From an uncultured bacterium (GTDB lineage Bacteria; Patescibacteriota; Minisyncoccia; Moranbacterales; UBA2206), in NCBI GenBank assembly GCA_903831805.1, contig CAIKZD010000017.1, positions 12,358-76,357 on the forward strand: DNA of 64,000 nt, written 5' to 3'. Position 1 is the stretch's first letter. Every line of letters begins with the position of its first letter. Made by a program: the position numbers and the translations under genes. The notes beneath the pieces were generated by a model. It was not told the DNA's origin. It was given only the letters and a program-made list of their open reading frames with translations, and made no database searches. Shown in pieces: positions 12,026 to 62,166 of the stretch.

Positions 12026-13492
12026 TTATGCAAGTCTTCCTTCTAAATTCCAAGTATTGACGCGTGTTATCCTAACTTCAAGAAGCTTGCCAGCCAACTT
12101 TTTTTGGCTGGTTTTAATTTTTACATTTTTAAGGGTGCGTGTGTGTCCGAAATATTTACCAGCCCTACCATTGTCTACTAATACGTCAAAAGTTTTGCCG
12201 AGATATTGCTGATTGTTTTTGAGCGCCGACGCGGCTAGAATTTCATTTAAATATTTCTCGCGGCGAACTTTTTCTTCTTTTTTGATGTTATCCTTCAATT
12301 TGAACGCAGCTGTGCCTGGGCGCGGGGAGAATTGGCCAAAATATGACATATCATATTGCACTCGACGCATCACGCCGGCGGTTTTTTCCAGCTGGACTTT
12401 AGTTTCGCCGGGGAAACCGACAATGATGTCGGACGACAATGCAAAAATCTTCTCTGGTTTATTTTTAGCAAAACTATTTTTAATTTTTTCAATCAGCTGT
12501 AAATAATGCGCGCGGGTATAGTGGCGGTTCATATTTTTCAAAATTGTGTCGTCGCCCGACTGGATAGGCAAGTGTACTGCTTCGCAAACTTTTTCCAAGC
12601 TAGTGATGGTTTCAATCAGTTCAGCTGTCATATCTTTTGGGTGCGGCGTCATAAAACGGATCCAAAAATCTCCCGGAATGGCATTGATGGTTTTGAGGAG
12701 GTCAGAAAAATTCACAACATCACCCTCTCTGTCTCGAGTACGAGACATCTCTCCCGAGTACAGGAGAGATGGAAACATTTTGCCCCCTCTCCCGTACTCG
12801 GGAGAGGGCTGGGGAGAGGGCAATGGTTCGTAGCTGTTGACGTTCTGTCCAAGGAGCGTTATTTCTTTAACGCCTGATTTGATGAGCTTTTTAATTTCTT
12901 GCAAGATTTCTTCGGCCGGGCGTGAAACTTCTCGTCCGCGGGCGTAAGGCACGACGCAGTATGAGCAGAAGTTGTTGCAGCCGGTCATGATGGGGACATA
13001 AGCTTGGGCAGAGTTTGCGTATTTTGGAGTGACGGTTAAATAGCAATTGTCATTCTGAGCGGAGCATAGCGGAGTCGAAGAATCTGCTTTGTGGTGTAAC
13101 TGGCGATGATTATTAGTAGATTCTTCGACTTCGTCCGAGTACGGACTTCGCTCAGAATGACATAATAAAAAATTTTCAAGTTCTTGCATGAAGTCTTTGA
13201 TTTCACAAAACAAAGCCACCTTATTTTTCAATTTTTCCTGTATATCTTTCCGATTGGCCAGGCAGCCGGTCAGCACTATTTTTGTTTGCGGATTATTTTT
13301 CCAAAGATTATGGATCTGTCCGTACGCTCGGTCTTCAGCCATTTTTCTGACACCGCAAGTGTTGAAAATTACGATATTCGCTTTCGTAATGTCTTTGGCT
13401 GGCTGGATTTTTTGCGCTTCCAAAAACCCGGCCATCCGCTCTGAATCGCTGACATTCATCTGGCAGCCGAAGGTTTTGATGAAATATTGCAT
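12026..13492 (-). CDS. miaB: MiaB-family radical-SAM methylthiotransferase (tRNA-i6A37 methylthiotransferase-like), carrying two in-frame repeat insertions
   Basis: MQYFIKTFGCQMNVSDSE (MTTase N domain), CNNFCSYCVVPYARG radical-SAM motif and a C-terminal TRAM domain. Adjacent to miaA. Confidence 0.75.
   Translation of the reverse strand: MQYFIKTFGCQMNVSDSERMAGFLEAQKIQPAKDITKANIVIFNTCGVRKMAEDRAYGQIHNLWKNNPQTKIVLTGCLANRKDIQEKLKNKVALFCEIKDFMQELENFLLCHSERSPYSDEVEESTNNHRQLHHKADSSTPLCSAQNDNCYLTVTPKYANSAQAYVPIMTGCNNFCSYCVVPYARGREVSRPAEEILQEIKKLIKSGVKEITLLGQNVNSYEPLPSPQPSPEYGRGGKMFPSLLYSGEMSRTRDREGDVVNFSDLLKTINAIPGDFWIRFMTPHPKDMTAELIETITSLEKVCEAVHLPIQSGDDTILKNMNRHYTRAHYLQLIEKIKNSFAKNKPEKIFALSSDIIVGFPGETKVQLEKTAGVMRRVQYDMSYFGQFSPRPGTAAFKLKDNIKKEEKVRREKYLNEILAASALKNNQQYLGKTFDVLVDNGRAGKYFGHTRTLKNVKIKTSQKKLAGKLLEVRITRVNTWNLEGRLA
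12722..12830. repeat. compound AGTA/TACT-loop hairpin module in frame in the MiaB-family CDS
   Basis: GTCTCGAGTACGAGAC, TCTCTCCCGAGTACAGGAGAGA and CCCTCTCCCGTACTCGGGAGAGGG. Encodes ...EPLPSPQPSPEYGRGGKMFPSLLYSGEMSRTRDREG.... Confidence 0.7.
13048..13162. repeat. MITE-like element family 1 (TIR TGTCATTCTGAGCGGAGC...GCTCAGAATGACA), copy inside the MiaB-family CDS with the reading frame preserved
   Basis: Terminal inverted repeats match the intergenic copies. The ORF is continuous through it (...LLCHSERSPYSDEVEESTNNHRQLHHKADSSTPLCSAQNDNCY...) in the linker between the MTTase and radical-SAM domains. Confidence 0.7.
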
Positions 13493-13547
13493 GAAAACGC
13501 TGTAGAGACGCCCCAACGGGGCGTCTCTACGTTGTTAAATGTTTAAT

Positions 13548-15299
13548 TTATTTTTTTTCTTTAATTTCTTTTTTAATCTTTTCCAAAAATTCTTCAATCT
13601 TCATAGTCTCCTGATTTTCTTCCCCTCGCGTTCGCACAGATACACTATTGTCCGCAGCTTCTTTTTCGCCCATTACTAAGATGTATGGCACTTTTTGTTT
13701 GGCCGCGGTGCGTATGCGTTTGCCAAGCGATTCATCGGAGTCATCAATTTTCGCGCGAATGCCAGACGCGATGAATCGCATCTCTACTTCTTTGGCGTAA
13801 TCTTTAAACTTTTCTGAAACTGGCAGAATTACAGCTTGCACAGGGGAGAGCCATGTTGGGAAAGCGCCGGCATAGTGTTCGATGAGAATGCCCATGAAAC
13901 GTTCGAAAGAGCCCATAATAGTTCTATGAATAAGAACTGGTGTTTTAGCTTGGCCGTCCGCATCGATGTAACTGCAGTCAAATTTCAGCGGCATCTGGAA
14001 ATCCAATTGAATAGTGGCGCATTGCCAAGTGCGGCCGATGGCGTCTTTCAATTGGAAATCGATTTTGGGCCCATAGAAAGCGCCGTCTTTTTCTTTGAGA
14101 CCATAATTCTCGCCGTATAGTTCACCCAGAATTTTTTTCAAATCAATTTCGGCTTTGTCCCAAACGGCGATGTCGCCCATGAAATCATCCGGTCGAGTGG
14201 AGAGATAGGCTTTGTACTCAAGACCAAAAGGTTTATAAATCTTATCCACTAGCTTAACCACGTTCTTAATTTCTTCTTCCACCTGATCCGGGCGGATGAA
14301 AATGTGGGCGTCATCTTGAGTGAATTGCTGCACGCGGAACAGGCCCCCGAGCTGGCCGGATTTTTCGTGGCGAGTGATGAGGCCCGGTTCGGCGTAACGC
14401 AAGGGGAAGTCGCGGTATGATTTCATGGAACTGTTGTAAATCATAATCGCCCCGGGGCAATCCATCGGGCGCAAGGCAAATTGTTTGTCGCCCTCAAGAC
14501 TGGTGACAAAGTACATGTCGTCTTTATAATGATCCCAGTGGCCGGACTTTTTCCAAATGGAGACATCCAACATTGACGGGCAAAGAATGGTGTCATAAGC
14601 AAATTCTTTTTGCGCTTCCATCCAGAAATTTTTCAGCTCATTGAAAATCACAGCGCCTTTCGGATGGAAAAATGGTATTCCGGGTGCCACATCATGAAAA
14701 GAAAACAGATCCAGCTCTTTCCCAATTTTCCGATGGTCTCTTTTTTCCGCTTCTTCCAACATATGCAGATAATCTTTCAGTTCAGCTTTAGCGGCAAAGG
14801 CTACGCCATAAATTCTTTGTAACATCTTGTTTTTTTCATCGCCTTTCCAATAGGCCCCGGAAATTTTGGTCAGTTTCAATGCGTCGGACCTGATTTCACC
14901 GGTCGAATCAAGATGCGGGCCGCGGCAAAGGTCGACAAACGCCCCGGTTTTATACACAGAAACTACGCCCTCGCCGGCTTTGATGAGGTCTTCAATTATT
15001 TCGACTTTGTAATCCTGGCCGGCCCGCTGAAAATCTTCGATGGCGTTGCCGACTGTCATCTCCGCTCGTTCAAATTTATGATCGGCTTTGATTATGACTC
15101 GCATCTTTTCTTCCAAGATGGGCAGGTCTTCCGGAATGAGAGTACGCGGTAGGTCGAAGTCATAATAGAAGCCGTTTTCGATGGCCGGCCCCATGGCAAA
15201 CTTAGCTTCGGGAAACATTTCCAGGACCGCGGCGGCCAAAACATGTGCCGCGCTGTGGCGTAAGATCTCCAAATTTTCGGGCGTGGTTTTTTCTGACAT
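13548..15299 (-). CDS. thrS: threonyl-tRNA synthetase (short form lacking the N-terminal TGS domain)
   Basis: MSEKTTPENLEILRHSAAHVLAAAV..., class II motifs and a C-terminal anticodon-binding domain. Confidence 0.9.
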   Translation of the reverse strand: MSEKTTPENLEILRHSAAHVLAAAVLEMFPEAKFAMGPAIENGFYYDFDLPRTLIPEDLPILEEKMRVIIKADHKFERAEMTVGNAIEDFQRAGQDYKVEIIEDLIKAGEGVVSVYKTGAFVDLCRGPHLDSTGEIRSDALKLTKISGAYWKGDEKNKMLQRIYGVAFAAKAELKDYLHMLEEAEKRDHRKIGKELDLFSFHDVAPGIPFFHPKGAVIFNELKNFWMEAQKEFAYDTILCPSMLDVSIWKKSGHWDHYKDDMYFVTSLEGDKQFALRPMDCPGAIMIYNSSMKSYRDFPLRYAEPGLITRHEKSGQLGGLFRVQQFTQDDAHIFIRPDQVEEEIKNVVKLVDKIYKPFGLEYKAYLSTRPDDFMGDIAVWDKAEIDLKKILGELYGENYGLKEKDGAFYGPKIDFQLKDAIGRTWQCATIQLDFQMPLKFDCSYIDADGQAKTPVLIHRTIMGSFERFMGILIEHYAGAFPTWLSPVQAVILPVSEKFKDYAKEVEMRFIASGIRAKIDDSDESLGKRIRTAAKQKVPYILVMGEKEAADNSVSVRTRGEENQETMKIEEFLEKIKKEIKEKK

Positions 15300-15520
15300 A
15301 AAATTATTATTAAAAATTAAAAAAGCACCAAAATAAAATTAGAATTTCGAGGCCCGATGTTATATCGGACGGTTCCACTCGAATTCCCAAATTTATTTGG
15401 GCGCTCTTTTGACCAGATTTGTCAGGTCTTACAGAAGCTCAGCGGTTGGTAGTCGCGTCAAGGCTTCTTCTTAACAGTAGTCTAATTATACAAAAATCGG
15501 AGAAATAGTCAAATCGAGGG
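15300..15520 (-). promoter_or_regulatory. candidate thrS leader: promoter TTGACT-16-TATAAT plus a degenerate T-box element (AAUUCGAGUGGAACCG) and terminator hairpin
   Basis: On the minus strand: TTGACTATTTCTCCGATTTTTGTATAAT, a stem-I-like hairpin with an ACUACCA loop (Thr codon ACC followed by A), hairpin CCCAAAT-AA-ATTTGGG, then AATTCGAGTGGAACCGTCCGATATAACATCGGGC and a U-rich tract before the ATG. Confidence 0.4.
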
Positions 15521-15589
15521 CCTCATTTCCAATCTTGGCTTGCTTATGCTAGAATAATGGGTGGATAATCAACTTTTTAACATAAAATT

Positions 15590-25196: not shown

Positions 25197-25353
25197 TGTC
25201 ATTCTGAGCGAAGCCTGTAATCAGGCGCAGTCGAAGAATCTGCTCGGTGTAACTACTAGTTTACCTATAAAGCACAAGTCTCGAGGTAACCACTGGCAGA
25301 TCCTTCGACTGCGTTCATCGCCTCATCGGCGACTCACTCCGCTCAGGATGACA
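25197..25353. repeat. MITE-like element family 1 copy (intergenic)
   Basis: TGTCATTCTGAGCGAAGC...GTCGAAGAATCTGC ... GCAGATCCTTCGACTGCG...GCTCAGGATGACA. Confidence 0.75.
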
Positions 25354-25936: not shown

Positions 25937-26026
25937 AAATCTCCCGATGAACAGTGAAATAAAAAAGCCAGCGACGGCAATATCGTCTCTGGCTTTTAAA
26001 TTTGGTTAAAGAAATGTGTCATCCTG

Positions 26027-26146
26027 AATGTAGCGAAGCGTAATGAAGGATCTGCTATGTGTAATAACTAGTTTTACGATAAATCACAAAGCTGGTTGTA
26101 CCCACTGGCAGATCCTTCGTCCGGCTAGCGCCATCCTCAGGATAAC
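26027..26146. repeat. MITE-like element family 1 copy (degenerate, intergenic)
   Basis: TGTCATCCTGAATGTAGCGAAGCG...GCAGATCCTTCGTCCGGC...CTCAGGATAAC. Confidence 0.65.
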
Positions 26147-30376: not shown

Positions 30377-30419
30377 AATTTTCAATAATCAATTTACAAT
30401 TTTCATTCAATAATCAATA
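30377..30419. repeat. 43-bp AT-rich repeat AATTTTCAATAATCAATTTACAATTTTCATTCAATAATCAAT (copy 1)
   Basis: Identical to 63628..63670; extended flanks are similar; lies in the dnaE/rnhB divergent promoter region. Confidence 0.8.
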
Positions 30420-30869
30420 TTTAATATTCAATTTCGTAATTTTTAAATTAAAAAATTTAAGACATTTATTGAAGATTGATTATTGATCATTGGAAATTGG
30501 AGACAATAAAAACTACCCCAGAGAAGTAGCTTTAAATATTACGCATGATGATACAGTATTTTCCATCTTTTTTATTATCCCCTTAATCCGGATTGCTCCA
30601 TGGATGCGGCAGGATGATTATGAATCCAGTATAGCACAGAGTGTTTTCCATAACAAAAAAGAACCTGGCTATAGTTCCAGATCTTTTTTGTTTTCTTTAA
30701 TATACAGGCCTATATTTATTTCCCGCTTATATGATAAGATGGAAACAATAAACGAAAGAACTATAAAAACACAAAGTTTATTATCTCAAAAAACCATGAA
30801 CATGTCAACCCTGTTAAATAAGTGAGTAAAAATGGGGGCTTGAAATTTTGTAGCTATTTAAATAATGTA

Positions 30870-31658
30870 ATGCCAATAATCATTATGGGGAAAAATTTAA
30901 CAGGGTCAATAGTTGAATTATTCGAGGAAGAAAGGGCTTTTTTTGCCCAAGGATATGATGCAGTTGTCGGAATTGATGAGGCGGGAAGAGGACCATTAGC
31001 CGGACCTGTCGTAGCTGCCGCTACAACAGTCCGGAATTTCCAATTTCTAATTTCCAATTTCCAAACAAATCCTAATGATCAAATTTCTAATGACAAAGAT
31101 TTTTTCAAAAAATTAAATCTCATCAAAGATTCTAAAAAACTTTCAGAGAAGCAGCGCGAGATGTTATATGATTTCATCCAAGAAAATTTCTATGTCGGAG
31201 TGGGGATTTGCGATCACTTGACCATTGATCGAATAAATATTCTGGAAGCGACGTATTTGGCGATGAAGAGCGCGGTGAGTGAACTCACGCGAATCATGAA
31301 CCATGAATCACGAATCATGAATGAAAAAAACATAATTCATAATTCAAAATTCATAATTCTGGTGGATGGCAATAAAGAAATTCCCAATCTTTCCATTGAC
31401 CAAAAAGCGATCGTGGGCGGGGATGGCTTGGTGAAATCGATTGCGGCAGCGTCCATCATTGCCAAGGTGACGCGGGATCGAATGATGAAAGAGGCACACG
31501 GAAAATATCCGCAGTATAATTTTTTGCAGCACAAAGGTTACGGCACTAAGATTCACATGGATGCGCTCAAAAAATTCGGTCCGTGCGAGATCCATCGCCG
31601 CAGTTTCCGGCCGGTGAGAGATGTGCTGGATATGTATCGCTCAACTATCAGCAATTAG
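30870..31658 (+). CDS. rnhB: ribonuclease HII with two in-frame AT-rich repeat insertions
   Basis: DAVVGIDEAGRGPLAGPVVAAA and C-terminal motifs. The start could alternatively be the Met at 30885. Confidence 0.8.
   Translation: MPIIIMGKNLTGSIVELFEEERAFFAQGYDAVVGIDEAGRGPLAGPVVAAATTVRNFQFLISNFQTNPNDQISNDKDFFKKLNLIKDSKKLSEKQREMLYDFIQENFYVGVGICDHLTIDRINILEATYLAMKSAVSELTRIMNHESRIMNEKNIIHNSKFIILVDGNKEIPNLSIDQKAIVGGDGLVKSIAAASIIAKVTRDRMMKEAHGKYPQYNFLQHKGYGTKIHMDALKKFGPCEIHRRSFRPVRDVLDMYRSTISN
31033..31098. repeat. AT-rich TTCCAATTTC/TCTAAT repeat inserted in frame in rnhB
   Basis: GGAATTTCCAATTTCTAATTTCCAATTTCCAAACAAATCC..., encoding RNFQFLISNFQTNPNDQISNDKDFF. Confidence 0.55.
31290..31359. repeat. 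AT-rich GAATCATGAA/ATAATTCA repeat inserted in frame in rnhB
   Basis: CGAATCATGAACCATGAATCACGAATCATGAATG...CATAATTCATAATTCAAAATTCATAATTC, encoding RIMNHESRIMNEKNIIHNSKFIIL. Confidence 0.55.
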
Positions 31659-34959: not shown

Positions 34960-35205
34960 TTCGGAAAGAAATCCTTTTTTAAGGAGAGTAGACTCTGACG
35001 GGTTCCGCTTCAGCGGCGGATGAAGGCCCGTAATAGCCGTTTCAGAGGGTTGATTAGTTGAATAGTTTATTAGTTGATTAGGAAAGAAGCCTAATTAACC
35101 AATAAACTAAGTGACTAATTAACTAAATTAAGGTGGTACCGCGATTAAAGTCGCCCTTAAACGTAAGTTTTTGGGTGTTTTTTTATTTTTAATATACACA
35201 ATTAA
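34960..35205 (+). promoter_or_regulatory. T-box riboswitch leader of ileS
   Basis: Canonical T-box sequence AAATTAAGGTGGTACCGCG at 35126..35143, followed by hairpin CCCTTAAAC...GTTTTTGGGTGTTTTTTTATTTTT (terminator). Upstream are a stem-I-like nested hairpin and a long imperfect inverted repeat. Confidence 0.6.
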
Positions 35206-35219: not shown

Positions 35220-35367
35220 CGTCATCCTGAGCGGAGTGAGCCCGCTTCAGCGGGGGAACGAAGTCGAAGGATCTACTTACATTACCTCAGGCTTATTGAT
35301 TTATAAAAAAGCCAGTGGTAACGCAAAATAGATTCTTCGACTTCGCTACGCTCCGCTCAGAATGACG
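35220..35367. repeat. MITE-like element family 1 copy, inserted between the ileS T-box terminator and the ileS start codon
   Basis: CGTCATCCTGAGCGGAGTGAGC...GTCGAAGGATCTAC ... TAGATTCTTCGACTTCGCTACGCTCCGCTCAGAATGACG. Confidence 0.75.
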
Positions 35368-35376: not shown

Positions 35377-38300
35377 ATGAGTTTTAGAAAAGTAGAATCG
35401 AATCAAAAATTTCCGGAGATGGAAATGGAAGTGCTTAAATTTTGGGGGGAGAATAAAATTTTTGAGAAATCTTTAGAGAATCGCAAGGACGCTAAAGAAT
35501 ATAGTTTTTATGATGGACCGCCGTTTGCCACGGGCACGCCGCACTATGGACATATCGTGGCTAGTGTCATGAAGGATGTAGTTCCGAGATATTGGACCAT
35601 GAAGGGATATTACGTCGAGCGTAAATGGGGGTGGGATTGTCATGGGCTACCGATTGAGAATATCGTGGAAAAAGAATTAGGCTCAAAGAAAAAGAAAGAT
35701 ATTGTAGAAATGGGAGTGGAAAAATTTAATGAGCTTTGCCGCAGCAAGGTTCTGACCTATGTGGATGTGTGGGAGAAAGTTGTCAGTCGCATGGGGCGTT
35801 GGGCGGATATGAAAACCTCTTATCGGACGATGGACAAAGACTATATGGAAAGTGTATGGTGGGTTTTTAAAGAGCTTTGGGATAATGGACTAATCTATGA
35901 AGACTATCGCTCGATGCATGTTTGCCCAAGGTGTGAAACTACTTTGTCGCAATCAGAAGTTTCTGAAGGATATAAAGATATAAAAGATTTGTCAGTCATT
36001 GCAAAGTTTGAGCTGATTGATGAGCCGGGGACTTTTGTTTTAGCGTGGACGACGACACCCTGGACATTGCCGGGCAATGTGGCTTTGGCAGTGGGAGAAG
36101 AATTAGAATATGTGAAAGTGAAAGATTTATGGATTCCTCTGGATAAAGATAATATAAAGCCATTAGAAGAAGGAAAAACTCCGCCGGCAGTAGAAATGAA
36201 AGAGGAATATTATATTATTGAGAAGAATTCTTTTGAAAAATATAAAAAGATGTTTCATAACGCTGAGCCAAACGTTATAGAAGAATTTAAAGGTAAAAAT
36301 TTGATTGGCAAAAAATACGTTCCGCTTTTTGATTTTTATAGTAAAGACGAAAAATTAGCTAATCATAACAATGGTTGGAAAATTTATGCCGGTGATTTTG
36401 TGACGACCGAAGAAGGCACAGGCGTGGTGCACATAGCCCCGGCCTTTGGAGAAGATGATATGCGACTAGGGAAAGAAAATAATTTGCCCTTTGTGCAACA
36501 CGTGGCAATGGACGGCAGTTTCAAAGAAGAGTTGGGAGAACTGGCCGGACTGAACGTAAAACCGATTGAAAATCCACAAGCGACGGATGTGGAGATTATA
36601 AAATATCTAGCCAAGCATGGCACGCTCTTCCATAAAGAAAAATTTGAACATAGCTATCCGCATTGTTGGCGCTGTGACACGCCACTCATCAACTATGCGA
36701 CGAGTTCATGGTTTGTAGCTGTCACTAAAATCAAAGACAAAATGTTGGAGGTGGCCAAAAATATTAATTGGTCGCCGGCTAACATGAAAGAAGGCCGGTT
36801 CGGCAATTGGCTAGAAGGCGCGCGCGATTGGTCCATTTCCCGCCAGAGATTTTGGGCTTCTGTCATGCCGATCTGGGTGTGCGAAGAATGCGGCGAACAG
36901 AAAGTTTTTGGTAGTGTGGCGGAATTGGAAAAATTGAGCGGCGAGAAAATTGATGATTTGCACAAACACATCGTCGACAAAGTTACATTTCCTTGCGAAA
37001 AGTGTCAGAAGAAAATGAAGCGCGTGCCGGATGTACTCGACACTTGGTTTGACAGTGGCTCAATGCCATACGCTCAAAAACATTATCCGTTTGAAAATAA
37101 AGAACGCTTCGACAAAACTTTTCCCGCCAATTTCATTGCGGAAGGTGTGGATCAAACCCGGGCCTGGTTCTATTATTTGCATGTTATTGCCAGTGGCGTG
37201 AAAGAGCAAGAGGCTTTTCAGAATGTTATTGTGAATGGGATTGTTCTCGCTGAAGATGGCAAGAAGATGAGTAAGAAGCTACAAAATTATCCGGATCCAA
37301 TGGAAATGTTTGAAAAATATGGGGCGGACAGCGTGCGGCACTATCTGATGAGCTCGCCGGTGGTGGCTGCGCAAAATATGAATTTCATGGAAAGTGAGGT
37401 GGGTGAAATCACGCGAGGAATGATGCGCATGCTCTGGAATTCCTATTCATTCTTCGTGCTTTACGCGGACATCGACAAATTCGAAGCGGACAAAAACTTT
37501 GATCCAAAAAAACTGAATGGTCTTTTGGACCGCTGGATGGTTTCAGAACTACATATGCTGATTAAAGATTTCAATGGGCACATGGAAAACTATGAATTGC
37601 ATAAAGCGGCGCGCCTCTTGCCGAAGTTTATCGATAATCTTTCCAACTGGTACATTCGCCGTTCGCGTAAACGCTTTTGGAAAAGTGAAAACGATGGCGA
37701 CAAGAATGAAGCTTATCAGACTTTGTATTATGTTTTGGTAGAACTTTCCAAAGTTATGGCACCGTTCACGCCATTTATCGCGGAAGAAATTTGGAGAAAT
37801 TTGACGAGTGGCGTTTCAGAACCCCTCCGCCCCTTCGGGACACATCCCCTGAGTACAGGGGAGGGGGAAGTTGCGTCTGTGCATCTGCAAGATTTTCCGG
37901 CGGCAGATGAAAAATTGATTGATGAGAAAGTGAATAAAAATATGCAAGATCTTCGTGAAATTATAACTCTTGGCTTACAAGATCGGGCTAAAAACGGAAT
38001 TAAGGTTCGTCAGCCATTGAAAAGGGTTATTCTTGGACAAAAATACGCCGATGTTTTTAATGAAACTATTAATAAGATTGAATGGAGCAGTATTCTCATA
38101 GAAGAACTTAATGTTAAAGGCGCGGAGCTTGGAACGAAAACTGAAACAGTTATGATTGATACAGAAATCACTCCCGAACTGAAGCTTGAAGGGGCTGCGC
38201 GGGAAATCATTCGTCATATTCAACAGATGAGAAAAGATGCCGGCTACGAAGTGGATAACCGAATTGAGGTGTGGTATGATGGCTTAAAAGAGGTTTTTGA

Positions 38301-44455: not shown

Positions 44456-45799
44456 ATGCTAGAGCTAGATAAGAAGAAGAAGAATTCTGGAAACTTAGAA
44501 TTGCTGGCGCCGGCAGGCAATTTGGAGAAGTTAAAATACGCCATTGCCTATGGCGCGGACGCTGTCTATGCCGGCGTGCCGGATTTTTCTTTGCGGGTGC
44601 GCATTAATAATTTTACGGAAAGTACGCTGTGCGAAGCGGCGGACTATGCACATAAGCATGGAAAAAAAATTTATATTACGCTGAACATTTATGCTCATAA
44701 TTTTCATTTAGAAAAAATCACGGCGCATTTGAAATTTTTGAAAACATTATCAATTGACGGCGTGATCGTGAGCGATCCGGGCATCATCAATTTAGTGAAG
44801 AAATATCTGCCCAAGGTGGACATGCATCTGTCTACGCAGGCCAACGCTACTAATGTTGAGGCGGTGAAATTTTGGCAGCAGATCGGAGTGAAAAGAATTG
44901 TGCTGGCGCGCGAAGTGACCCTGGAAGAAATTCGCGAGATTAGGGCATCCGTGCCAAAAATGGAATTGGAATATTTTATCCACGGGGCGATGTGCATGAG
45001 TTATTCCGGGCGGTGCATCTTGTCCAAATGGATGAGTGGGAAAAGCGCGAATCTGGGGGATTGCACGCAGCCGTGCCGATGGGCGTATCGCCCAAAATTA
45101 CAAATTACAAATGACAAATGTCAAATAAATTCCAAAGTTCAAATTTCAAATTCAAAAAATAATTTAGACGAAGTATTGGCGATGAGCGTTGTAGATAATC
45201 AAGAAAAATTTGAGATGGATTTGGAAGAGGATCGACACGGGACATATTTTTTCAATAGTCGAGATTTGAACCTGGCCGCGCATATTGCCGATTTGGCAGA
45301 GGCAGGTGTGACGAGTTTCAAGATCGAAGGGCGGGCTAAGAGTGTCTATTATGTCTCAGTGGTCACGCGGGCTTATCGCAAAATTATAGCCGCTATTGGG
45401 AAAAAAAGTTTAAATTTAGTAATCAGAGCACAGCAGAAAGAACTGGACACGCTAGTGAATCGAGGCTATACCAACGGCTTTCTTTTGGGGGCGGAACCGG
45501 AGCATAATTTTTCAGGAAAATTGAGCGAGACGCCGTGGAAGTTTTCCGGCGTGGTGGAAGGCAAGAAAAAAATTGGCAAAGAAATTTTTAATATAATTTT
45601 TGCGCACAATGAAATGTATGCGCGGGACGTCATCGAGGCGGTGACACCCAAAGAAAACGTGAAAGTCAAAATTAAAAAAATCTTAAACTACAAACTTGAA
45701 AAAGTAACTGAAATCCATGGCGGACACGCCAACCGATTTTTTGTGCAGTTTGACTTGGTTTTACCGAAAGGTGTGCTTCTGCGGAGGAAAGTAAAGTAA
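44456..45799 (+). CDS. peptidase U32 family protein with in-frame AT-rich repeat insertion
   Basis: LELLAPAGNLEKLKYAIAYGADAVY...GAMCMSYSGRC. Confidence 0.8.
   Translation: MLELDKKKKNSGNLELLAPAGNLEKLKYAIAYGADAVYAGVPDFSLRVRINNFTESTLCEAADYAHKHGKKIYITLNIYAHNFHLEKITAHLKFLKTLSIDGVIVSDPGIINLVKKYLPKVDMHLSTQANATNVEAVKFWQQIGVKRIVLAREVTLEEIREIRASVPKMELEYFIHGAMCMSYSGRCILSKWMSGKSANLGDCTQPCRWAYRPKLQITNDKCQINSKVQISNSKNNLDEVLAMSVVDNQEKFEMDLEEDRHGTYFFNSRDLNLAAHIADLAEAGVTSFKIEGRAKSVYYVSVVTRAYRKIIAAIGKKSLNLVIRAQQKELDTLVNRGYTNGFLLGAEPEHNFSGKLSETPWKFSGVVEGKKKIGKEIFNIIFAHNEMYARDVIEAVTPKENVKVKIKKILNYKLEKVTEIHGGHANRFFVQFDLVLPKGVLLRRKVK
45094..45165. repeat. AT-rich CAAAT/TTCAAA repeat in frame in the U32 peptidase CDS
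   Basis: AAAATTACAAATTACAAATGACAAATGTCAAATAAATTCCAAAGTTCAAATTTCAAATTCAAAAAAT, encoding KLQITNDKCQINSKVQISNSKNN. Shares CAAATGTCAAATAAAT with the intergenic copy at 60146..60212. Confidence 0.6.
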
Positions 45800-46828: not shown

Positions 46829-46883
46829 AAGTTTGTTTATTTTATTCCAGTATAAAGGAAGGCGGGGAAAAGGCAATCTTTTT

Positions 46884-47032
46884 GTCATCCTGAGCGGAGT
46901 GAGTCGCCGATAAGGCGAGGAACGCAGTCGAAGAATCTGCTTTGTGATAATTCTTGTTTTGTGATTTATAGTAAAATTAGCAGCTACACCAGGCAGATTC
47001 TTCGACTTCGCTACGCTCCGCTCAGAATGACA
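46884..47032. repeat. MITE-like element family 1 copy (intergenic)
   Basis: TGTCATCCTGAGCGGAGTGAGTCGCC...GTCGAAGAATCTGC ... GCAGATTCTTCGACTTCGCTACGCTCCGCTCAGAATGACA. Confidence 0.8.
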
Positions 47033-54600: not shown

Positions 54601-54605
54601 AAAAA

Positions 54606-54640
54606 GTCGTTGCGTAATGTCGCGCAACGACTCGAATTGT
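54606..54640 (-). terminator. hairpin terminator (U-run on minus strand; serves the DUF4177 gene, possibly bidirectional)
   Basis: GTCGTTGCG-TAATGT-CGCGCAACGAC flanked by A-run and T-run. Confidence 0.55.
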
Positions 54641-54656
54641 ATGGTTAAGGAATATT

Positions 54657-54851
54657 TCAACCAATACCCAACCAGCTTTTTCCACTACTTGGCGCTATTA
54701 GACGCTTGAAGTAGAATGATCTTTCATGCAGGTGGCTATTGTCGAAGCCGACCAATTCCCAACCTTTTTTTCCGAGGATGTTTAGAATATCCTGAGTTCC
54801 TTCATTGGTTTTTTGTATACTTTGTACAATTTTATATTCCCATTGTTGCAT
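54657..54851 (-). CDS. DUF4177-domain protein
   Basis: MQQWEYKIV...LNILGKKGWELV, the characteristic DUF4177 pattern. Confidence 0.6.
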   Translation of the reverse strand: MQQWEYKIVQSIQKTNEGTQDILNILGKKGWELVGFDNSHLHERSFYFKRLIAPSSGKSWLGIG

Positions 54852-55010
54852 AAGATTACCTCTTAGTTGATGTTTTTTGTTAAATCGCCTTGTTTTTAAA
54901 GAATATAGTAGTATGTATTATCTGATAACATTTGTCAATCTTCATTAAATTTATATAGTGAATATTGCTTAATTTAAGGCAAAAAATGACAAAAGTAGCT
55001 TACATGCATT

Positions 55011-55148
55011 TGTCATTCTGAGCGAAGCGTAGCGAAGTCGAAGAATCTGCTTTGTGTTTCCAGTGGTTATCCTATAAGGGTAAAACTTGTGGTAATGCAA
55101 AGTAGATCCTTCGGCTGCGTCCGAGTACGGACTTCGCTCATGATGACA
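55011..55148. repeat. MITE-like element family 1 copy (intergenic)
   Basis: TGTCATTCTGAGCGAAGCGTAGCGAAGTCGAAGAATCTGC ... GATCCTTCGGCTGCGTCCGAGTACGGACTTCGCTCATGATGACA. The right arm contains the GTCCG-AGTA-CGGAC hairpin. Confidence 0.75.
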
Positions 55149-55255
55149 AGCTTACTAATGACGGGTTTTTACTAAACATTAAATCTAGTGAATTAAATAA
55201 CGAGATTGCCGCGGTCGTTTTGAGTACAAAACTCCCTCGCAATGACAGAATTTCC

Positions 55256-56143
55256 ATGATTGACACCCATGCCCACATTGATGACCACCAATTTGACGCC
55301 GACCGCGAAGAAATGATTGGACGGGCTTTTAGTAGCGGCGTGGAAAAAATCGTGACTATTGGGGCGGGGCTAGGATCGAGTGCGCGGGCGGTGGAGGTGG
55401 CTAAGAACCATGACAATATTTTTGCCGTGGTGGGGTTGCATCCGGAATATTTTATGCAGCATGGAGCGTGGAATGAAGAGCATAAGCAAAAGTTGGAAGA
55501 ACTGGCGCGCGCGGAAAAAGTGGTGGCTATCGGAGAAATTGGATTGGAATATCATTCACATGACGGAGCGCCTATAGCAGATGAACAAAAAGAGTTTCAA
55601 AAAGAAGGTTTTATCTATCAATTAGAATTAGCTAAGAAATTAAAGTTGCCAGTGGTCATCCATTGCCGTGGGGAGCGTGCGCCCGTAGGCGAGAAATATC
55701 GGGAAGTAGGCGAGGCGTATGAAGATGTGCTGGAGATTTTGGAAGATTCTTTCGGAACCCCTCCGTCCCGAGTACGAGACACCTCCCCTGAGTACAGGGG
55801 AGGGGGAGAACTCCCTTTTGTTGTTTTTCATTCTTTCGGCGGACGATTGGATTTTGCCAGGAAAGTCATGGCGCGCGAAAATATCTTTTTTTCTTTCAAT
55901 GGCAATCTGACTTATGCTAAACCGAGTGCGGAAATTTTGGAAGTGGTGAAAATGATTCCACTCGAAAAAATCATGTTGGAAACCGATTGCCCGTATCTTT
56001 CCCCTGTGCCGCACCGGGGGGAACGGAATGAGCCGGCTAATGTGGTTTATGTGCGGGATAAAATTGCAGAAATTAAAGCCATAGATAAAGAAGAAGTGGA
56101 CAAAATCACTTCCCAAAATGCGGTCAAATTTTTCCGTTTTTAG
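55256..56143 (+). CDS. tatD: TatD-family metal-dependent deoxyribonuclease/hydrolase
   Basis: MIDTHAHIDD...GLHPE...GEIGLE...HCR. Confidence 0.85.
   Translation: MIDTHAHIDDHQFDADREEMIGRAFSSGVEKIVTIGAGLGSSARAVEVAKNHDNIFAVVGLHPEYFMQHGAWNEEHKQKLEELARAEKVVAIGEIGLEYHSHDGAPIADEQKEFQKEGFIYQLELAKKLKLPVVIHCRGERAPVGEKYREVGEAYEDVLEILEDSFGTPPSRVRDTSPEYRGGGELPFVVFHSFGGRLDFARKVMARENIFFSFNGNLTYAKPSAEILEVVKMIPLEKIMLETDCPYLSPVPHRGERNEPANVVYVRDKIAEIKAIDKEEVDKITSQNAVKFFRF
55757..55810. repeat. AGTA-loop hairpin module inserted in frame in tatD
   Basis: CCCCTCCGTCCCGAGTACGAGACACCTCCCCTGAGTACAGGGGAGGGGGAG, encoding GTPPSRVRDTSPEYRGGGEL. Confidence 0.7.
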
Positions 56144-57613: not shown

Positions 57614-57698
57614 GTCAGTCATCGGTCAATGGTCATCAATCCGCATAACTTTGCGGGTTGAGAACGATTAACTGAATAAATATCTTAAAGCTAATTAT

Positions 57699-58184: not shown

Positions 58185-58185
58185 C

Positions 58186-58587: not shown

Positions 58588-58630
58588 TTAATTTAAAATT
58601 TATAATTTAAAATCGTAACAATATAATTTT

Positions 58631-60139: not shown

Positions 60140-60145
60140 ACGAGG

Positions 60146-60212
60146 AAATTTCAAAATCCAAATTTCAAATGTCAAATAAATATCAAATGGCTAAATGACA
60201 AATTAGAAATTA
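60146..60212. repeat. AT-rich CAAAT repeat (intergenic atpA-atpG)
   Basis: GGAAATTTCAAAATCCAAATTTCAAATGTCAAATAAATATCAAATGGCTAAATGACAAATTAG, related to the in-CDS insertion in the U32 peptidase. Confidence 0.55.
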
Positions 60213-60218
60213 TTTTTT

Positions 60219-61172
60219 ATGGCTAGCACAAAAGATATTCAAAGAAGAATAAAATCCGTCGGCAATACGCAGAAGATTACGCGGGCGATGGAGATGGTGA
60301 GCGCCGCTAAGATGCGAAAATCGGTGGCGTCGGTTTTGGCCATCCGGCCGTACGCGCACGCCGCGTGGGGAGTGCTCACGAATTTGAGCCGCGCCTTTGC
60401 GGAATATAAGACCGGACTTTTGGAAGTGCGCGAAGTGAAAAGAGTGCTGGCCATTGCGGTCACCTCGAACCGGGGACTGTGTGGAGCTTTCAATTCGCAG
60501 ATTTCCAAAAAAATCAGAGAGGAAATTTTGCACCCGGAGAGCTTGAAGATGAATCGGGTAGGCAAGAAGAGAATTGAATCTACTCAGGAGAACATTGAAA
60601 TTGATTTCATCACGATTGGCAAAAAAGGGGAGGGTGTCGTGCGACGTAATGGCAAAAATATCATCGCCTCGTTCAATGACTTATCCTATCTGCCGAAAGT
60701 GGACGATGTGCGAGTGGTGGGTAAAATGGTGATGGATGATTATCTGGCCAAAAAATATGACAAGGTGGTGATTTTCTATACCGATTATGTGTCGGCCATG
60801 AGCCAACAGGCCAAGGTCCGTCAGCTCTTGCCGATTTCGAAAATTGATTTGGAGAAGCAGATCGCCGAGATGGATGTGTTGGCCAAAGAATATGGCTTGA
60901 AGGAAGTACGTTCGGAATATAAAGTGGAACCGACGCCGAATTTGGTTTTGGAATATATTTTCCCGCGCCTGATTGAGATGCAGATCTATCACGCCATTCT
61001 GGAATCGAACGCCTCGAAAGAATCGGCCCGCATGCTAGCCATGAGAAACGCCACAGACGCGGCCGGTGAAATGAAAAACAGTCTGACATTCGTGTTCAAT
61101 CAGATCCGGCAAGGCAAGATTACGCAGGAGATTGCGGAGATTTCCGCGGGAAGAGCGGCGTTGGAGAATTAG
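60219..61172 (+). CDS. atpG: F0F1 ATP synthase subunit gamma
   Basis: MASTKDIQRRIKSVGNTQKITRAMEMVSAAKMRK. Confidence 0.9.
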   Translation: MASTKDIQRRIKSVGNTQKITRAMEMVSAAKMRKSVASVLAIRPYAHAAWGVLTNLSRAFAEYKTGLLEVREVKRVLAIAVTSNRGLCGAFNSQISKKIREEILHPESLKMNRVGKKRIESTQENIEIDFITIGKKGEGVVRRNGKNIIASFNDLSYLPKVDDVRVVGKMVMDDYLAKKYDKVVIFYTDYVSAMSQQAKVRQLLPISKIDLEKQIAEMDVLAKEYGLKEVRSEYKVEPTPNLVLEYIFPRLIEMQIYHAILESNASKESARMLAMRNATDAAGEMKNSLTFVFNQIRQGKITQEIAEISAGRAALEN

Positions 61173-61475
61173 AAGTCTGAACCACTGACCGTGCCTCGCC
61201 GGCAGGCGGGTTCGCACGTGATTATCCTGATTGCACTGATTTAAAAATACAAAATAGCAAAGTAATGTAGAGGTTTAATTTATTAAACCTTACCCGGAAA
61301 CATTTTCCGGAGACAGGCAGGTTTGATAAATCAAACCTCTACATAAAAAAGAAAGAAGTTCTTTGGAAAATTTTGGAGAAAAAAATAGAGCCCACATCAG
61401 TTATGATGCAGGCTCGGGTGAGGCAAAGAACGGGGAGGTTCAGGTCGGAGACGCTGAATTAAGCATGCTGTTGAG

Positions 61476-61805
61476 CTATACGAGTACGAAAGAATAAAAG
61501 TTGTAACGGCGGCTCGCATCATCCTCTTTTTGCAGATAGCCTCCTTGAACATCCGGGCTGGCGTCAGCGCTTAGTCCGTGTAAACCGGCTAGAAGTGTGG
61601 CTATGGAAGCGGCTGTCTTCTCGTCTTGTATTACCAATGAAGAACTGAAATTATTGAAATTGATTTCCCTCTCTTTCCATGGATAGGCCTTATGTTTAAA
61701 GCCTCCAGTGGGGTCATAACATACGAGAGTAGCATGTCCTTCAAGAAAAAATAACATTATCCTGGTTCCTTTTTTGAAAATACATCCGGGTTTTTCTCCT
61801 GACAT
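61476..61805 (-). CDS. hypothetical protein (109 aa) encoded antisense to the atp operon within the atpG-atpD insertion
   Basis: Own SD (AAGGAG) and consensus promoter; no domain recognised. Confidence 0.45.
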   Translation of the reverse strand: MSGEKPGCIFKKGTRIMLFFLEGHATLVCYDPTGGFKHKAYPWKEREINFNNFSSSLVIQDEKTAASIATLLAGLHGLSADASPDVQGGYLQKEDDASRRYNFYSFVLV

Positions 61806-61890
61806 GGTGGTCTCCTTGTTGTGCTTGTTGTAAAAGAATGTTAGAAAATGGTTTGTTGAAATGATTTCGTGGAAACACTAACAACCCCTC

Positions 61891-61920
61891 ATTATACTCC
61901 AAAACCACAAAAAAGTCAAG
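61891..61920 (-). promoter_or_regulatory. consensus sigma70 promoter (TTGACT-17-TATAAT) on the minus strand
   Basis: Minus strand reads TTGACTTTTTTGTGGTTTTGGAGTATAAT, driving the hypothetical gene 61476..61805. Confidence 0.55.
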
Positions 61921-62023
61921 CCCCGAAAAATGGCTTTGCCATCTCGGGGTGAAAGTTGAATTTTAACTGGTGAATATTAGCTTAGATAAAGCAATATTTA
62001 GTAGTTAGGGTTTAAAGAGAATT

Positions 62024-62166
62024 GTCATTCTGAGCGAAGCGAAGTCGAAGAATCTACTTTGTGTTTCCATTGGTTATGCTATAGATTGCAAAGCTAGTGG
62101 TAACGCAGGGCAGATCCTTCGACTGCGTTCCTCCGCTAGCGCGTCGTTACTTCGCTCAGGATGACA
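62024..62166. repeat. MITE-like element family 1 copy (between the minus-strand gene and atpD)
   Basis: TGTCATTCTGAGCGAAGCGAAGTCGAAGAATCTAC ... GCAGATCCTTCGACTGCG...CTTCGCTCAGGATGACA. Confidence 0.75.

What the first reader, a model, noticed from the sequence alone, without database searches (positions are those of the whole stretch)
13048..62166. A ~115-157-bp MITE-like palindromic element family (TIR TGTCATYCTGAGCGRAG...GTCGAAGAATCTGC), 7 copies in 64 kb, one in frame inside a CDS
Seven copies were found: 13048-13162, 25197-25353, 26027-26146, 35220-35367, 46884-47032, 55011-55148 and 62024-62166. They share about 40-55-bp terminal inverted repeats, with the left end TGTCATYCTGAGCG[GA]AG[CT]G...GTCGAAG[AG]ATCT[GA]C and the right end its reverse complement, around a variable 30-60-bp core. 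This is the architecture of a non-autonomous MITE or nested hairpin element. No transposase is present in the window. Six copies sit in intergenic leaders, including one between the ileS T-box terminator and the ileS start codon. One upstream of the geranylgeranyl-reductase gene creates a spurious 5' ORF extension. One flanks the insertion in the atp operon. Copy 13048-13162 lies inside the MiaB-family CDS with the frame preserved, encoding CHSERSPYSDEVEESTNNHRQLHHKADSSTPLCSAQNDNCY in the inter-domain linker. Two copies embed the GTCCG-AGTA-CGGAC hairpin of the other repeat family, which suggests modular recombination between repeat families.
Basis: seen in the sequence. Interest (0 to 1): 0.75.

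Follow-up and report, generated by a model that had tools for sequence, protein, structure and literature searches.

The report
Paired hairpin repeats of the Ssn class
The seven "MITE-like" palindromes are real, but each is a pair of small DNA hairpin repeats of a known class (CGTC-tagged REPs, also called Ssn-related motifs), which in other bacteria bracket the gene for a tiny nuclease that cuts single-stranded DNA; here a new variant is scattered through a Moranbacteria (CPR) chromosome, once in frame inside an essential gene.

Summary
In detail: seven copies, with 13 end-motif hits against 0.34 expected. They are identical in at least five independent assemblies, so they are not artefacts.

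The "terminal inverted repeats" are two separately pairing hairpin modules: YGTC tag, ATYCT stem, tandem G·A, variable loop, AGRAT, CT tail. The tags point outward.

- Across 119 genome loci from many phyla plus the window, 218 of 239 modules keep a perfect 5-bp internal stem in at least 12 covarying versions.
- In 41 of 46 heterodimers the compensation lies within a module, not between the arms.
- No target-site duplication was found in 54 dimers. No transposase or GIY-YIG gene is in the window.
- The same modules bracket about 100-aa GIY-YIG (Ssn-like) genes in 45 of 68 metagenome loci and in two genome loci.
- Copies c1, c6 and c7 are absent from the orthologous sites of the closest relative.

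Closest known kinds are CGTC-tagged REP head-to-head dimers (Di Nocera 2013) and SRM/NTS–Ssn (Chenal 2025). The published SRM pattern and the 4–5-nt loop rule are not met, so I call this a new variant of a known kind. The mode of spread and the presence of a cognate Ssn in this genome remain untested.

The parts
13048..13162 (+). c1: head-to-head dimer inside the miaB CDS (the gene is on the minus strand), read in frame. A-module 13048-13084 (+), short spacer, B-type module 13119-13162 (-) with a GTCC-GAGTAC-GGAC loop hairpin. Both stems are ATTCT/AGAAT.
   Evidence: Absent from MiaB of the closest relative (L216). The encoded peptide is modelled as a disordered loop.
25197..25353 (+). c2: heterodimer. 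A-module 25197-25240 (ATTCT/AGAAT) and B-module 25299-25353 (-) (ATCCT/AGGAT, loop hairpin GTCGCC-GATGA-GGCGAC). It lies downstream of a YgjP-like gene and upstream of an ORFan of 113 aa.
   Evidence: The closest copy is L084 of a Moraniibacteriota MAG, at 85% identity.
26017..26146 (+). c3: degenerate dimer. The left module 26017-26052 is intact (ATCCT/AGGAT). The right arm, about 26108-26146, is decayed (GTTATCC...). It lies between two ORFans.
35220..35367 (-). c4: heterodimer in inverted orientation. B-module 35220-35273 (+) and A-module 35331-35367 (-). It lies between the T-box-like terminator and the ileS start. The ATG at 35362 lies inside the module, and the next in-frame ATG is at 35377.
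46883..47032 (-). c5: heterodimer in inverted orientation. B-module about 46883-46937 (+, one C·A mismatch in its stem) and A-module 46996-47032 (-). It lies in the divergent region between the FAD-dependent (geranylgeranyl-type) reductase gene and an aminoacyl-tRNA synthetase gene, and it causes a spurious 78-codon ORF extension.
   Evidence: The closest copy is L084, at 89% identity.
55011..55148 (+). c6: heterodimer. A-module 55011-55047 and B-module 55105-55148 (-) (one stem mismatch, GTCC-GAGTAC-GGAC loop hairpin). It lies in a 655-bp metG-tatD insert.
   Evidence: The whole segment 54601-55255 is absent from relative L214, where metG and tatD overlap.
55204..55246 (-). Solitary module of a second subtype: GTC-ATTGC-GAGG...-GCAAT-C, with the apical hairpin GTTTT-GTACTC-AAAAC.
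   Evidence: It is the only isolated module that folds well as ssDNA (-9.2 kcal/mol, z -2.4).
62023..62166 (+). c7: heterodimer. A-module 62023-62054 and B-module about 62113-62166 (-). It sits at the right edge of the 1-kb insert between atpG and atpD.
   Evidence: Relative L214 has a 41-bp atpG-atpD spacer. A 5-nt GCGAA slippage in the A-module loop is the only difference between two assemblies over 14.8 kb.

Best explanation
Each element is a head-to-head dimer (tags outward) of two small DNA hairpin modules around a 30-60-bp spacer. The modules belong to the CGTC-tagged REP / Ssn-related-motif class.

A module reads YGTC, then ATYCT, then GAG, a loop of 5 to about 30 nt, then CGA, AGRAT and CT. 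That is a 5-bp Watson-Crick stem, a tandem G·A/A·G, one further pair, and a short tail. The window copies are oriented heterodimers. The A-module has an ATTCT stem and a plain loop. The B-module has an ATCCT stem and an extra hairpin in its loop.

Inferred mechanism: when the DNA is single-stranded (replication, repair or DNA uptake), each module folds and is bound by a roughly 100-aa single-domain GIY-YIG nuclease of the Ssn family, encoded elsewhere in the genome. That enzyme nicks the strand a few nucleotides 5' of the tag. In a dimer this places the cuts just outside both ends.

The same module pair brackets ssn genes in other bacteria as units of about 420 bp. The window copies are therefore ORF-less counterparts of those units. 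They are gained and lost as whole dimers without target duplication.

Shown here: the anatomy, the covariation within modules, the linkage to ssn genes, the empty sites in a relative, and the tolerance of an in-frame copy.

Inferred only: that a cognate Ssn exists in this genome, that it cuts these modules, and how the copies spread.
For: Anatomy and orientation.

Module-internal stem: 218 of 239 modules have all five Watson-Crick pairs, in at least 12 stem versions, against 133±4 when partners are shuffled. There is only one G·T pair.

Of 56 dimers, 46 are heterodimers. In 41 of those, both modules are internally perfect, so compensation is within the module and not between the arms.

Module stems are 83-93% identical between window copies, while spacers and loops are 57-59% identical.

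ssn linkage:
- L009 and L061 have the module pair with extended inverted repeats round a GIY-YIG ORF.
- In 80 metagenome loci retrieved by protein similarity alone, modules occur at 0.51 per locus in the 100 bp upstream (+) and 0.45 per locus in the 100 bp downstream (-), against about 0.02-0.04 in other bins.
- Inward-facing heads lie on both sides in 45 of 68 loci, and the exact window-type head in 26 of 68.
- Ssn homologues occur in CPR genomes, one of them with an adjacent module.

Literature:
- SsnA binds NTS hairpins only as ssDNA and cuts upstream; NTS-ssnA-NTS is the typical layout (PMC11893778).
- CGTC REPs have a CGTC/TGTC tag, 8-9-bp stems that start with A-T and T-A pairs, a 3-nt tail, mostly head-to-head dimers with 20-100-bp spacers, and intragenic copies (PMC3733652).

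Gain and loss: c1, c6 and c7 are absent at orthologous sites of MAG GCA_023261605.1. That MAG carries a copy of the same family elsewhere (L084).

No target-site duplication. Identical copies in independent assemblies.
Against: No GIY-YIG ORF is in the window or in the 10 kb to its right. The rest of the genome could not be read.

The published degenerate SRM pattern gives 0 hits in the window and fails even on minimal relatives of this module.

The window loops (11-30 nt) exceed the 4-5 nt that defines CGTC REPs.

Isolated window modules do not fold better than shuffled sequence as ssDNA in ViennaRNA. The hairpin therefore rests on covariation, and a 5-bp stem closing a long loop would need a protein or the G·A pairs to hold.

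The empty sites lack larger blocks (655 and 1003 bp) that include ORFans, so an insertion of the dimer alone is not shown.

No Ssn has been tested on this module subtype. A GIY-YIG hydrolase has no known strand-transfer activity, so the route of spread is unknown.
Confidence: 0.72

Rival explanations
1. Classical non-autonomous MITE. The copies would be deletion derivatives of an insertion sequence, moved in trans by its DDE transposase, which recognises the terminal inverted repeats.
For: There are long inverted ends, a short variable core, multiple dispersed copies and presence/absence differences between relatives.
Against: There is no target-site duplication in 54 dimers at k = 2-8 and offsets 0-8. 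No transposase is in the window. None lies between arm pairs 1-5 kb apart in other loci.

The arms are usually not each other's complement at the stem positions, yet each is self-complementary.

The only protein recurrently bracketed by the modules is a GIY-YIG nuclease of about 100 aa.
Confidence: 0.05
2. RNA-level elements. The palindromes would act mainly in transcripts, as terminators, attenuators, RNase targets or mRNA stabilisers, and would be kept for that reason, as proposed for many REPs and Correia elements.
For: c4 lies in the ileS leader between a T-box-like terminator and the start codon, so it must be transcribed. Whole copies fold to -55 to -77 kcal/mol as RNA. Di Nocera et al. 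argue that many REPs work as RNA.
Against: Module stems are almost purely Watson-Crick, with one G·T in 239 modules, so the pairing holds on both strands as expected for DNA.

The copies occur in both orientations relative to flanking genes, in divergent promoter regions and inside a CDS.

No Rfam family matches, only chance microRNA-hairpin hits.

Selection preserves the weak module hairpin rather than the strong inter-arm hairpin.
Confidence: 0.12
3. REPIN/BIME-type doublets mobilised by a REP-associated Y1 tyrosine transposase (RAYT) or an IS200/IS605 TnpA.
For: The doublet architecture and the lack of target duplication match REPINs. A close relative carries an IS200-like Y1_Tnp gene at exactly the metG-tatD junction where the window has c6. 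Di Nocera et al. left open that RAYTs might move CGTC REPs.
Against: The tag is T/CGTC (53 of 54 dimers), not GTAG. No Y1 gene is in the window. The L212 locus with Y1_Tnp has no module at all. The recurrent neighbour of the modules is a GIY-YIG gene, not a Y1 gene.
Confidence: 0.06
4. Assembly or binning artefact: collapsed or chimeric repeats.
For: Some short-read contigs end inside a copy. L122 stops inside c6.
Against: Identical sequence, including c5, c6 and c7, appears in independent assemblies from ENA, JGI and Logan samples. The copies differ from one another by 16-37%. c1 keeps an essential gene in frame.
Confidence: 0.01

Closest known systems
CGTC-tagged REPs (Di Nocera, De Gregorio and Rocco 2013, BMC Genomics 14:522; includes Neisseria dRS3 and Rickettsia RPE-4/RPE-6)
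   Same: Unpaired CGTC/TGTC tag at one end. Stem of about 8 positions that starts with A-T and T-A pairs. Short unpaired tail. Mostly head-to-head dimers (tags outside) with 20-100-bp, partly conserved and structured spacers. Heterodimers occur. Copies occur inside genes and are read in frame. No transposase is associated.
   Different: Two of the eight stem positions are a tandem G·A. The window loops are 11-30 nt, often with a nested hairpin, instead of 4-5 nt. The tail is CTR rather than CCA. The host is a CPR (Moranbacteria) genome, and the variant is common in Acidobacteriota and Clostridia, which are not among the five phyla listed in 2013.
NTS/SRM - SsnA system (Chenal et al. 2025, Nat Commun 16:2388)
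   Same: GTCAT head, palindromic stem and ATC(Y) after the stem, the positions shown to matter for cutting and binding. The motif is oriented. Inward-facing copies bracket a GIY-YIG gene of about 95-105 aa. Hundreds of ORF-less copies occur elsewhere in genomes.
   Different: The published search pattern HGTCWYN(0-2)YYVSBRHN(0-5)WNVSBRGN(0-2)RNCYNB does not match this module. NTS are rarely in genes (2%), whereas one of seven dimers here is. No ssn gene was seen in the available sequence. Cleavage of this subtype and any role in transformation are untested.
REPIN / BIME with RAYT (Y1 transposase)
   Same: Doublets of inverted imperfect hairpins form a larger hairpin, disperse as whole doublets, make no target duplication, and have a single-copy cognate gene flanked by the same repeats.
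   Different: The tag is GTAG rather than CGTC. The cognate enzyme is an HUH/Y1 transposase with a covalent intermediate, not a GIY-YIG hydrolase.
Rickettsia palindromic elements (RPE)
   Same: Palindromic repeats inserted in frame into housekeeping genes, adding a surface loop without destroying the protein. RPE-4 and RPE-6 are CGTC REPs according to Di Nocera et al..
   Different: Different host lineage and module sequence. Here the insertion is a full dimer of 115 bp in an inter-domain linker that carries different repeat insertions in different Moranbacteria.
IS-derived bacterial MITEs (for example Correia elements)
   Same: Size, inverted ends, dispersal, and effects on neighbouring ORF calls.
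   Different: No target-site duplication, no transposase relative, and ends that are self-folding modules rather than mutual complements.

Membership tests
CGTC-tagged REP superfamily (Di Nocera 2013) | Unpaired terminal CGTC tag (TGTC or CCTC allowed) | tested here: met
   The base before GTC is T in 41, C in 12 and G in 1 of 54 dimers. Window copies have TGTC, and c4 has CGTC.
CGTC-tagged REP superfamily (Di Nocera 2013) | Stem of 8-9 bp that starts with complementary A-T and T-A pairs | tested here: inconclusive
   AT...AT is present. There are 5 covarying Watson-Crick pairs, then G·A/A·G, then one further pair that covaries in the examples read by eye (G-C, C-G or A-T; not counted). That makes 8 positions, of which 2 are non-canonical. 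The family consensus sequences are in figures that are not held as text.
CGTC-tagged REP superfamily (Di Nocera 2013) | Loop of 4-5 nt | tested here: not met
   Window loops are 11-30 nt, some with a nested hairpin. Minimal 25-nt relatives elsewhere do have 5-nt loops.
CGTC-tagged REP superfamily (Di Nocera 2013) | Predominantly head-to-head dimers (tags outside) with 20-100-bp spacers; intragenic copies occur | tested here: met
   All 7 window copies are head-to-head dimers with 30-60-bp spacers. c1 is intragenic and in frame.
SRM/NTS-Ssn system (Chenal 2025) | Match to the published degenerate SRM search pattern | tested here: not met
   There are 0 hits in the window. The NTS controls match. 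Five minimal relatives of the module do not.
SRM/NTS-Ssn system (Chenal 2025) | Oriented hairpin with a conserved GTC(A/T)Y head 5' of the palindrome and a conserved C just 3' of it | tested here: met
   The layout is GTCAT, stem..., stem, C in 14 of 15 window modules (the right arm of c3 reads GTTAT) and in 239 modules overall.
SRM/NTS-Ssn system (Chenal 2025) | The motif flanks ssn (single-domain GIY-YIG, about 94 aa) genes on both sides | tested here: met
   This holds in other genomes: L009 and L061, and 45 of 68 metagenome loci with heads on both sides, against a background of 0.1-0.3 per kb.
SRM/NTS-Ssn system (Chenal 2025) | An ssn gene is present in the same genome as the repeats | not testable with these tools
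   There is none in the 64-kb window or in the next 10 kb. Ssn homologues do exist in other CPR genomes.
SRM/NTS-Ssn system (Chenal 2025) | ssDNA-specific binding and cleavage upstream of the motif | not testable with these tools
   This needs biochemistry.
IS-derived MITE | Target-site duplication flanking the element | tested here: not met
   There is no excess of flanking direct repeats at k = 2-8 and offsets 0-8 in 54 dimers.
IS-derived MITE | A cognate autonomous IS with the same ends and a transposase | tested here: not met
   ORFs between arm pairs 1-5 kb apart are unrelated housekeeping genes. There is no transposase domain among about 50 window ORFs.
REPIN/RAYT | GTAG tag and a flanked Y1 transposase gene | tested here: not met
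   The tag is YGTC. The only Y1_Tnp seen (L212) has no module nearby.

The most novel reading that the evidence does not exclude
The module-ssn-module units (about 420 bp) and their ORF-less dimers would together form a pan-bacterial family of selfish elements that move through single-stranded DNA and rely on a GIY-YIG nuclease rather than a transposase. This would be a mobility class not yet demonstrated. The tandem-G·A, long-loop subtype described here would be a major branch that the published SRM motif misses, reaching even the reduced genomes of CPR bacteria and inserting in frame into essential genes.
Probability: 0.3. Interest if true: 0.8.

Novelty: new variant of a known kind. Interest (0 to 1): 0.5.

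Why it matters
The finding links a conspicuous repeat of a Moranbacteria genome to a class of ssDNA hairpin motifs whose cognate nuclease was characterised only in 2025. It shows that the published motif definition misses a subtype found in many phyla.

It gives a clean sequence-level argument that the selected structure is the small module hairpin and not the long palindrome: covariation lies within modules, and heterodimers are mismatched between their arms.

It documents gain and loss at orthologous sites, and an in-frame copy in MiaB.

For annotation, it explains spurious ORF extensions, odd "CHSERS...AQND" peptides and contig breaks in CPR bins.

For Ssn biology and ssDNA-tool development, it points to a new set of nuclease and target pairs, and to ORF-less dimers as evidence bearing on whether these units are mobile.

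Tried and rejected
- Rfam: no family at gathering thresholds in the whole window. Only chance microRNA-like hits on c4 at relaxed thresholds.
- Full-text search for the end motif: only unrelated primer sequences.
- Hammerhead-like reading of GTC...CUGAGCG...CGAAG: rejected by eye, because the CUGANGA and GAAA core positions do not fit.
- Transposase between distant arm pairs (1.1-4.9 kb) in other loci: unrelated housekeeping ORFs.
- Ssn remnants in dimer spacers by tblastn: none.
- Ssn, Y1 or DDE genes in the window: none.
- Walking along the source contig: the 10 kb to the right holds atpC, nuo-like genes and leuS.
- Strain-level empty sites: all assemblies of this population are identical except for a 5-nt slippage.
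- ssDNA folding of single modules: not more stable than shuffles, so thermodynamics does not support the module hairpin on its own.
- A 7-bp direct repeat (AGCTTAC) near c6 is offset on one side and has no counterpart at other copies.
- Supplementary tables of the Ssn paper are not held.
- The heterodimer rule is not universal: 31 of 52 ssn-bearing units have the same stem on both sides.

Full report
**1. Observation**

The seven copies are present. The outer motif TGTCATYCTGAGCGRAG has 13 matches at up to 3 mismatches, against 0.34 expected. The inner motif GTCGAAGRATCTRC has 13 matches against 1.1 expected. No shuffle reached either count.

Refined coordinates are 13048-13162, 25197-25353, 26017-26146, 35220-35367, 46883-47032, 55011-55148 and 62023-62166. 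Each copy folds into one long hairpin, with z-scores of -7.4 to -11.6.

The window is a housekeeping stretch of chromosome. It holds rplA, thyA, gatB, miaA, miaB, thrS, recQ, dnaE, argS, ileS, tgt, metG, tatD and the atp operon. No transposase or GIY-YIG domain is found. The closest proteins are from Candidatus Moranbacteria/Moraniibacteriota, a CPR lineage.

The same DNA, including c5, c6 and c7, is found in independent assemblies from several samples. Collapse artefacts are therefore excluded.

**2.

- c1 is read in frame and gives the quoted peptide. It lies between the UPF0004 and radical-SAM domains. AlphaFold models residues 122-157 as a coil with pLDDT below 50, flanked by confident domains.
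- The reductase ORF extension through c5 is mechanical. Gene callers give 340 aa.
- A T-box-like leader lies at 34966-35161. It scores 42.7 bits, below Rfam's cut-off of 93, with E = 4e-8 in the local search. It contains GGTGGTACCGCG and a terminator, and it precedes c4.
- c7 lies in a 1-kb insert between atpG and atpD.

**3. The unit is a module, not a TIR**

I scanned species-representative genomes with GTCATYCTGAGCGRAG-N(3-33)-GTCGAAGRATCT. These come from Acidobacteriota, Clostridia, Bacteroidota, Fibrobacter, Chloroflexi, Planctomycetes, Verrucomicrobia, Proteobacteria, Actinobacteria and CPR, and include cultured isolates.

The conserved entity in those loci is a module of 25-60 nt. It reads YGTC, ATYCT, GAG, loop, CGA, AGRAT, CT. 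It occurs alone, in same-strand arrays, or most often as inverted pairs 56-200 bp long.

Within a module, ATYCT pairs with AGRAT. Of 239 modules, 218 have all five Watson-Crick pairs, in at least 12 stem versions: ATCCT, ATTCT, ATCCC, ATTCC, ATGTT, ATTTC, ACCCT, ATGTC, ATCTT, ATGCC, ATGCT and ACCCC. Shuffling the partners gives 133±4. Only one G·T pair occurs. This is what one expects if the pairing matters in DNA on both strands.

The stem continues with a tandem G·A/A·G and one more pair. In the examples I read by eye that pair varies between G-C, C-G and A-T, but I did not count this.

**4. A discriminating test**

Once c4 and c5 are reverse-complemented, the copies align much better: 74% mean column identity instead of 64%. 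They then prove to be oriented heterodimers. The A-module has an ATTCT/AGAAT stem and a plain loop. The B-module has an ATCCT/AGGAT stem and an extra hairpin in its loop.

Each module is internally perfect, but the two arms are mismatched at exactly those positions. Across 56 dimers, 46 are heterodimers, and in 41 of those both modules are internally perfect. Selection therefore keeps the small module hairpins and not the long palindrome.

Module stems are 83-93% identical among window copies. Spacers and loops are 57-59% identical.

One caveat applies. Isolated window modules do not fold better than shuffled sequence as ssDNA in ViennaRNA. The hairpin therefore rests on covariation, and it probably needs a protein or the G·A pairs for stability.

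**5. What the module goes with**

Two genome loci, L009 (a gammaproteobacterial MAG) and L061 (Korobacteraceae), carry the same module pair with extended inverted repeats. In both, the pair surrounds an ORF of about 100 aa in place of the short spacer. Both ORFs are single-domain GIY-YIG proteins, and they are 54% identical to each other.

I then retrieved 80 metagenome loci by protein similarity alone.

- Modules occur at 0.51 per locus in the 100 bp upstream (+ orientation) and at 0.45 per locus in the 100 bp downstream (- orientation). Other bins hold about 0.02-0.04 per locus.
- Inward-facing heads lie on both sides in 45 of 68 loci.
- The exact window-type head GTCATYCTGAGCG (up to 1 mismatch) lies on both sides in 26 of 68 loci.
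- The background is 0.1-0.3 heads per kb.
- The median unit length is about 424 bp.

Homologues occur in CPR genomes (Magasanikbacteria, Roizmanbacteria and Patescibacteria). One of them has a module directly downstream of the gene.

**6. Comparison with what is known**

Chenal et al. 2025 (PMC11893778) showed four things:

- The Neisseria NTS (CGTCATTCCCGCGMAVGCGGGAATCYRG) and related "Ssn-related motifs" flank ssnA, a 94-aa GIY-YIG gene.
- SsnA binds the hairpin only as ssDNA.
- SsnA cuts a few nucleotides upstream.
- The three bases before the palindrome and the C after it are critical.

They noted that the NTS-ssnA-NTS layout is IS-like, but they did not show mobility.

Di Nocera et al. 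2013 (PMC3733652) defined CGTC-tagged REPs. These have a CGTC or TGTC tag, 8-9-bp stems that start with A-T and T-A pairs, 4-5-nt loops and a 3-nt tail. They occur mostly as head-to-head dimers (tags outside) with 20-100-bp spacers. Intragenic copies are known. The class equals dRS3 in Neisseria and RPE-4/RPE-6 in Rickettsia, and it has "no dedicated transposase".

The window elements have this anatomy and work the same way on paper, but two defining features fail. The published SRM pattern gives no hit in the window and fails even on minimal relatives. The window loops are 11-30 nt. I therefore file the elements as a new variant of this kind, not as a plain member.

**7. Mobility**

No target-site duplication exists at any k (2-8) or offset (0-8) in 54 dimers. 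That argues against a DDE-type MITE.

The closest available relative is MAG GCA_023261605.1, with AtpG 93% identical and about 80% nucleotide identity. It has the following at the orthologous sites:

- metG and tatD overlap. Window 54601-55255 is missing, which removes c6, the solitary module and a DUF4177 ORF.
- A 41-bp atpG-atpD spacer. Window 61173-62174 is missing, which removes an ORFan and c7.
- A 413-aa MiaB that lacks c1.

The same MAG carries a family member elsewhere (L084), which is the closest relative of c2 and c5. None of the syntenic loci L212-L216 holds the head motif.

Two limits apply. The missing blocks are larger than the dimers. The MiaB linker is hypervariable among Moranbacteria and carries different module-like inserts in different lineages. 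Gain and loss are therefore shown, but a clean single-dimer insertion is not.

Copies differ by 16-37%, and four of the seven have their nearest relative in another genome. This is an old family and not a recent burst.

**8. Mechanism proposed**

Shown: the module anatomy, the covariation, the linkage to ssn genes, the absence of target duplication, the gain and loss, and the tolerated in-frame copy.

Inferred: a genome-encoded Ssn binds each module on ssDNA and nicks 5' of the tag, just outside both ends of a dimer. The dimers would then be ORF-less counterparts of ssn units.

Unknown: how the copies spread, since a GIY-YIG hydrolase has no known strand-transfer step, and whether this genome still encodes the enzyme.

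**9. Rivals**

- RNA-level function may be a secondary effect, especially for c4 in the ileS leader. The Watson-Crick-only covariation, the mixed orientations and the CDS copy argue against it as the primary constraint.
- Mobilisation by a RAYT or Y1 transposase is disfavoured by the tag and by the neighbours actually found. Even so, a relative has an IS200-like gene at the same metG-tatD junction.

**10. Verdict**

The elements are a new variant (tandem-G·A stem, long loop, heterodimeric) of a known kind, seen here in a CPR genome.

Noticed in passing
window 8351-8395, 12730-12808, 37845-37862, 55782-55803, 62338-62351; also 13133-13146, 55119-55132, 55217-55232: A second hairpin family has variable, self-complementary stems and a constant GAGTAC loop. 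It lies inside the CDSs of miaA, miaB, ileS, tatD and atpD (the miaB and miaA copies add in-frame insert peptides; the others were not translated), and it also forms the apical hairpin of three SRM modules. Ten hairpins have GAGTAC on the + strand and one has GTACTC, against 0.3 expected. This holds whatever the gene's strand, so the bias follows the replication strand (GC skew is positive throughout) and not transcription. That suggests an ssDNA-level element.
   Followed up: partly
window 30377-30484, 31035-31105, 45095-45165, 60146-60216, 63628-63744: A third repeat family is AT-rich (AAATTTCAAAT / AATTTTCAATAAT). Three copies are intergenic. Two are read in frame inside the RNase HII and peptidase U32 CDSs (...KLQITNDKCQINSKVQISN...). 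Similar IENWKLKI peptides fill the MiaB linker of other Moranbacteria.
   Followed up: partly
window 54601-55255 and 61173-62174; L212 3767-4870 and 11083-11433; L215 1205-1892; L214 4147 and 9955-9995: The metG-tatD and atpG-atpD junctions are insertion hot spots. The window carries ORFans plus SRM dimers. One relative carries an IS200-like Y1_Tnp gene plus a 23S-rRNA-IVP gene at the first junction and a DUF559 endonuclease gene at the second. Another relative has a 70-aa ORFan. A third has both sites empty.
   Followed up: partly
window 61265-61344: A single doublet of GTAG-tagged hairpins (GTAG-AGGTTTAAT..ATTAAACCT ... AGGTTTGAT..ATCAAACCT-CTAC) lies at the left side of the atpG-atpD insert. 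It has REPIN-like anatomy but is the only copy in the window.
   Followed up: partly
window 62024-62054 versus L204 9798-9833: The only difference between two assemblies over 14.8 kb is a 5-nt GCGAA unit in the loop of the c7 A-module: (GCGAA)2 versus (GCGAA)3. This indicates slippage in the module loop.
   Followed up: yes
window 34966-35161: A T-box-like ileS leader scores 42.7 bits, far below Rfam's gathering score of 93, although it covers the full model and has the T-box sequence and a terminator. CPR T-boxes may be missed at curated thresholds.
   Followed up: partly
L049, L018 4799-5348, L034, L133 836-1064, L128 1314-1848: There are same-strand tandem arrays of modules, with periods of about 160-260 bp or tightly packed, in Acidobacteriota, Clostridia and metagenome contigs. 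They recall the NTS clusters of Neisseria.
   Followed up: no
window 8784-12014: A 1076-aa secreted-type protein (DUF5122 beta-propeller repeats encoded by five 174-bp tandem DNA repeats, fn3, CarboxypepD_reg) lies on the opposite strand between miaB and miaA. These two genes are adjacent and overlapping in the closest relative.
   Followed up: no
window 12720-12830 (MiaB residues about 225-265): A second in-frame insert in MiaB (PLPSPQPSPEYGRGG...SGEMSRTRDREGD) is built from GAGTAC hairpins. It is present, partial or absent among Moranbacteria orthologues and is modelled as disordered.
   Followed up: partly
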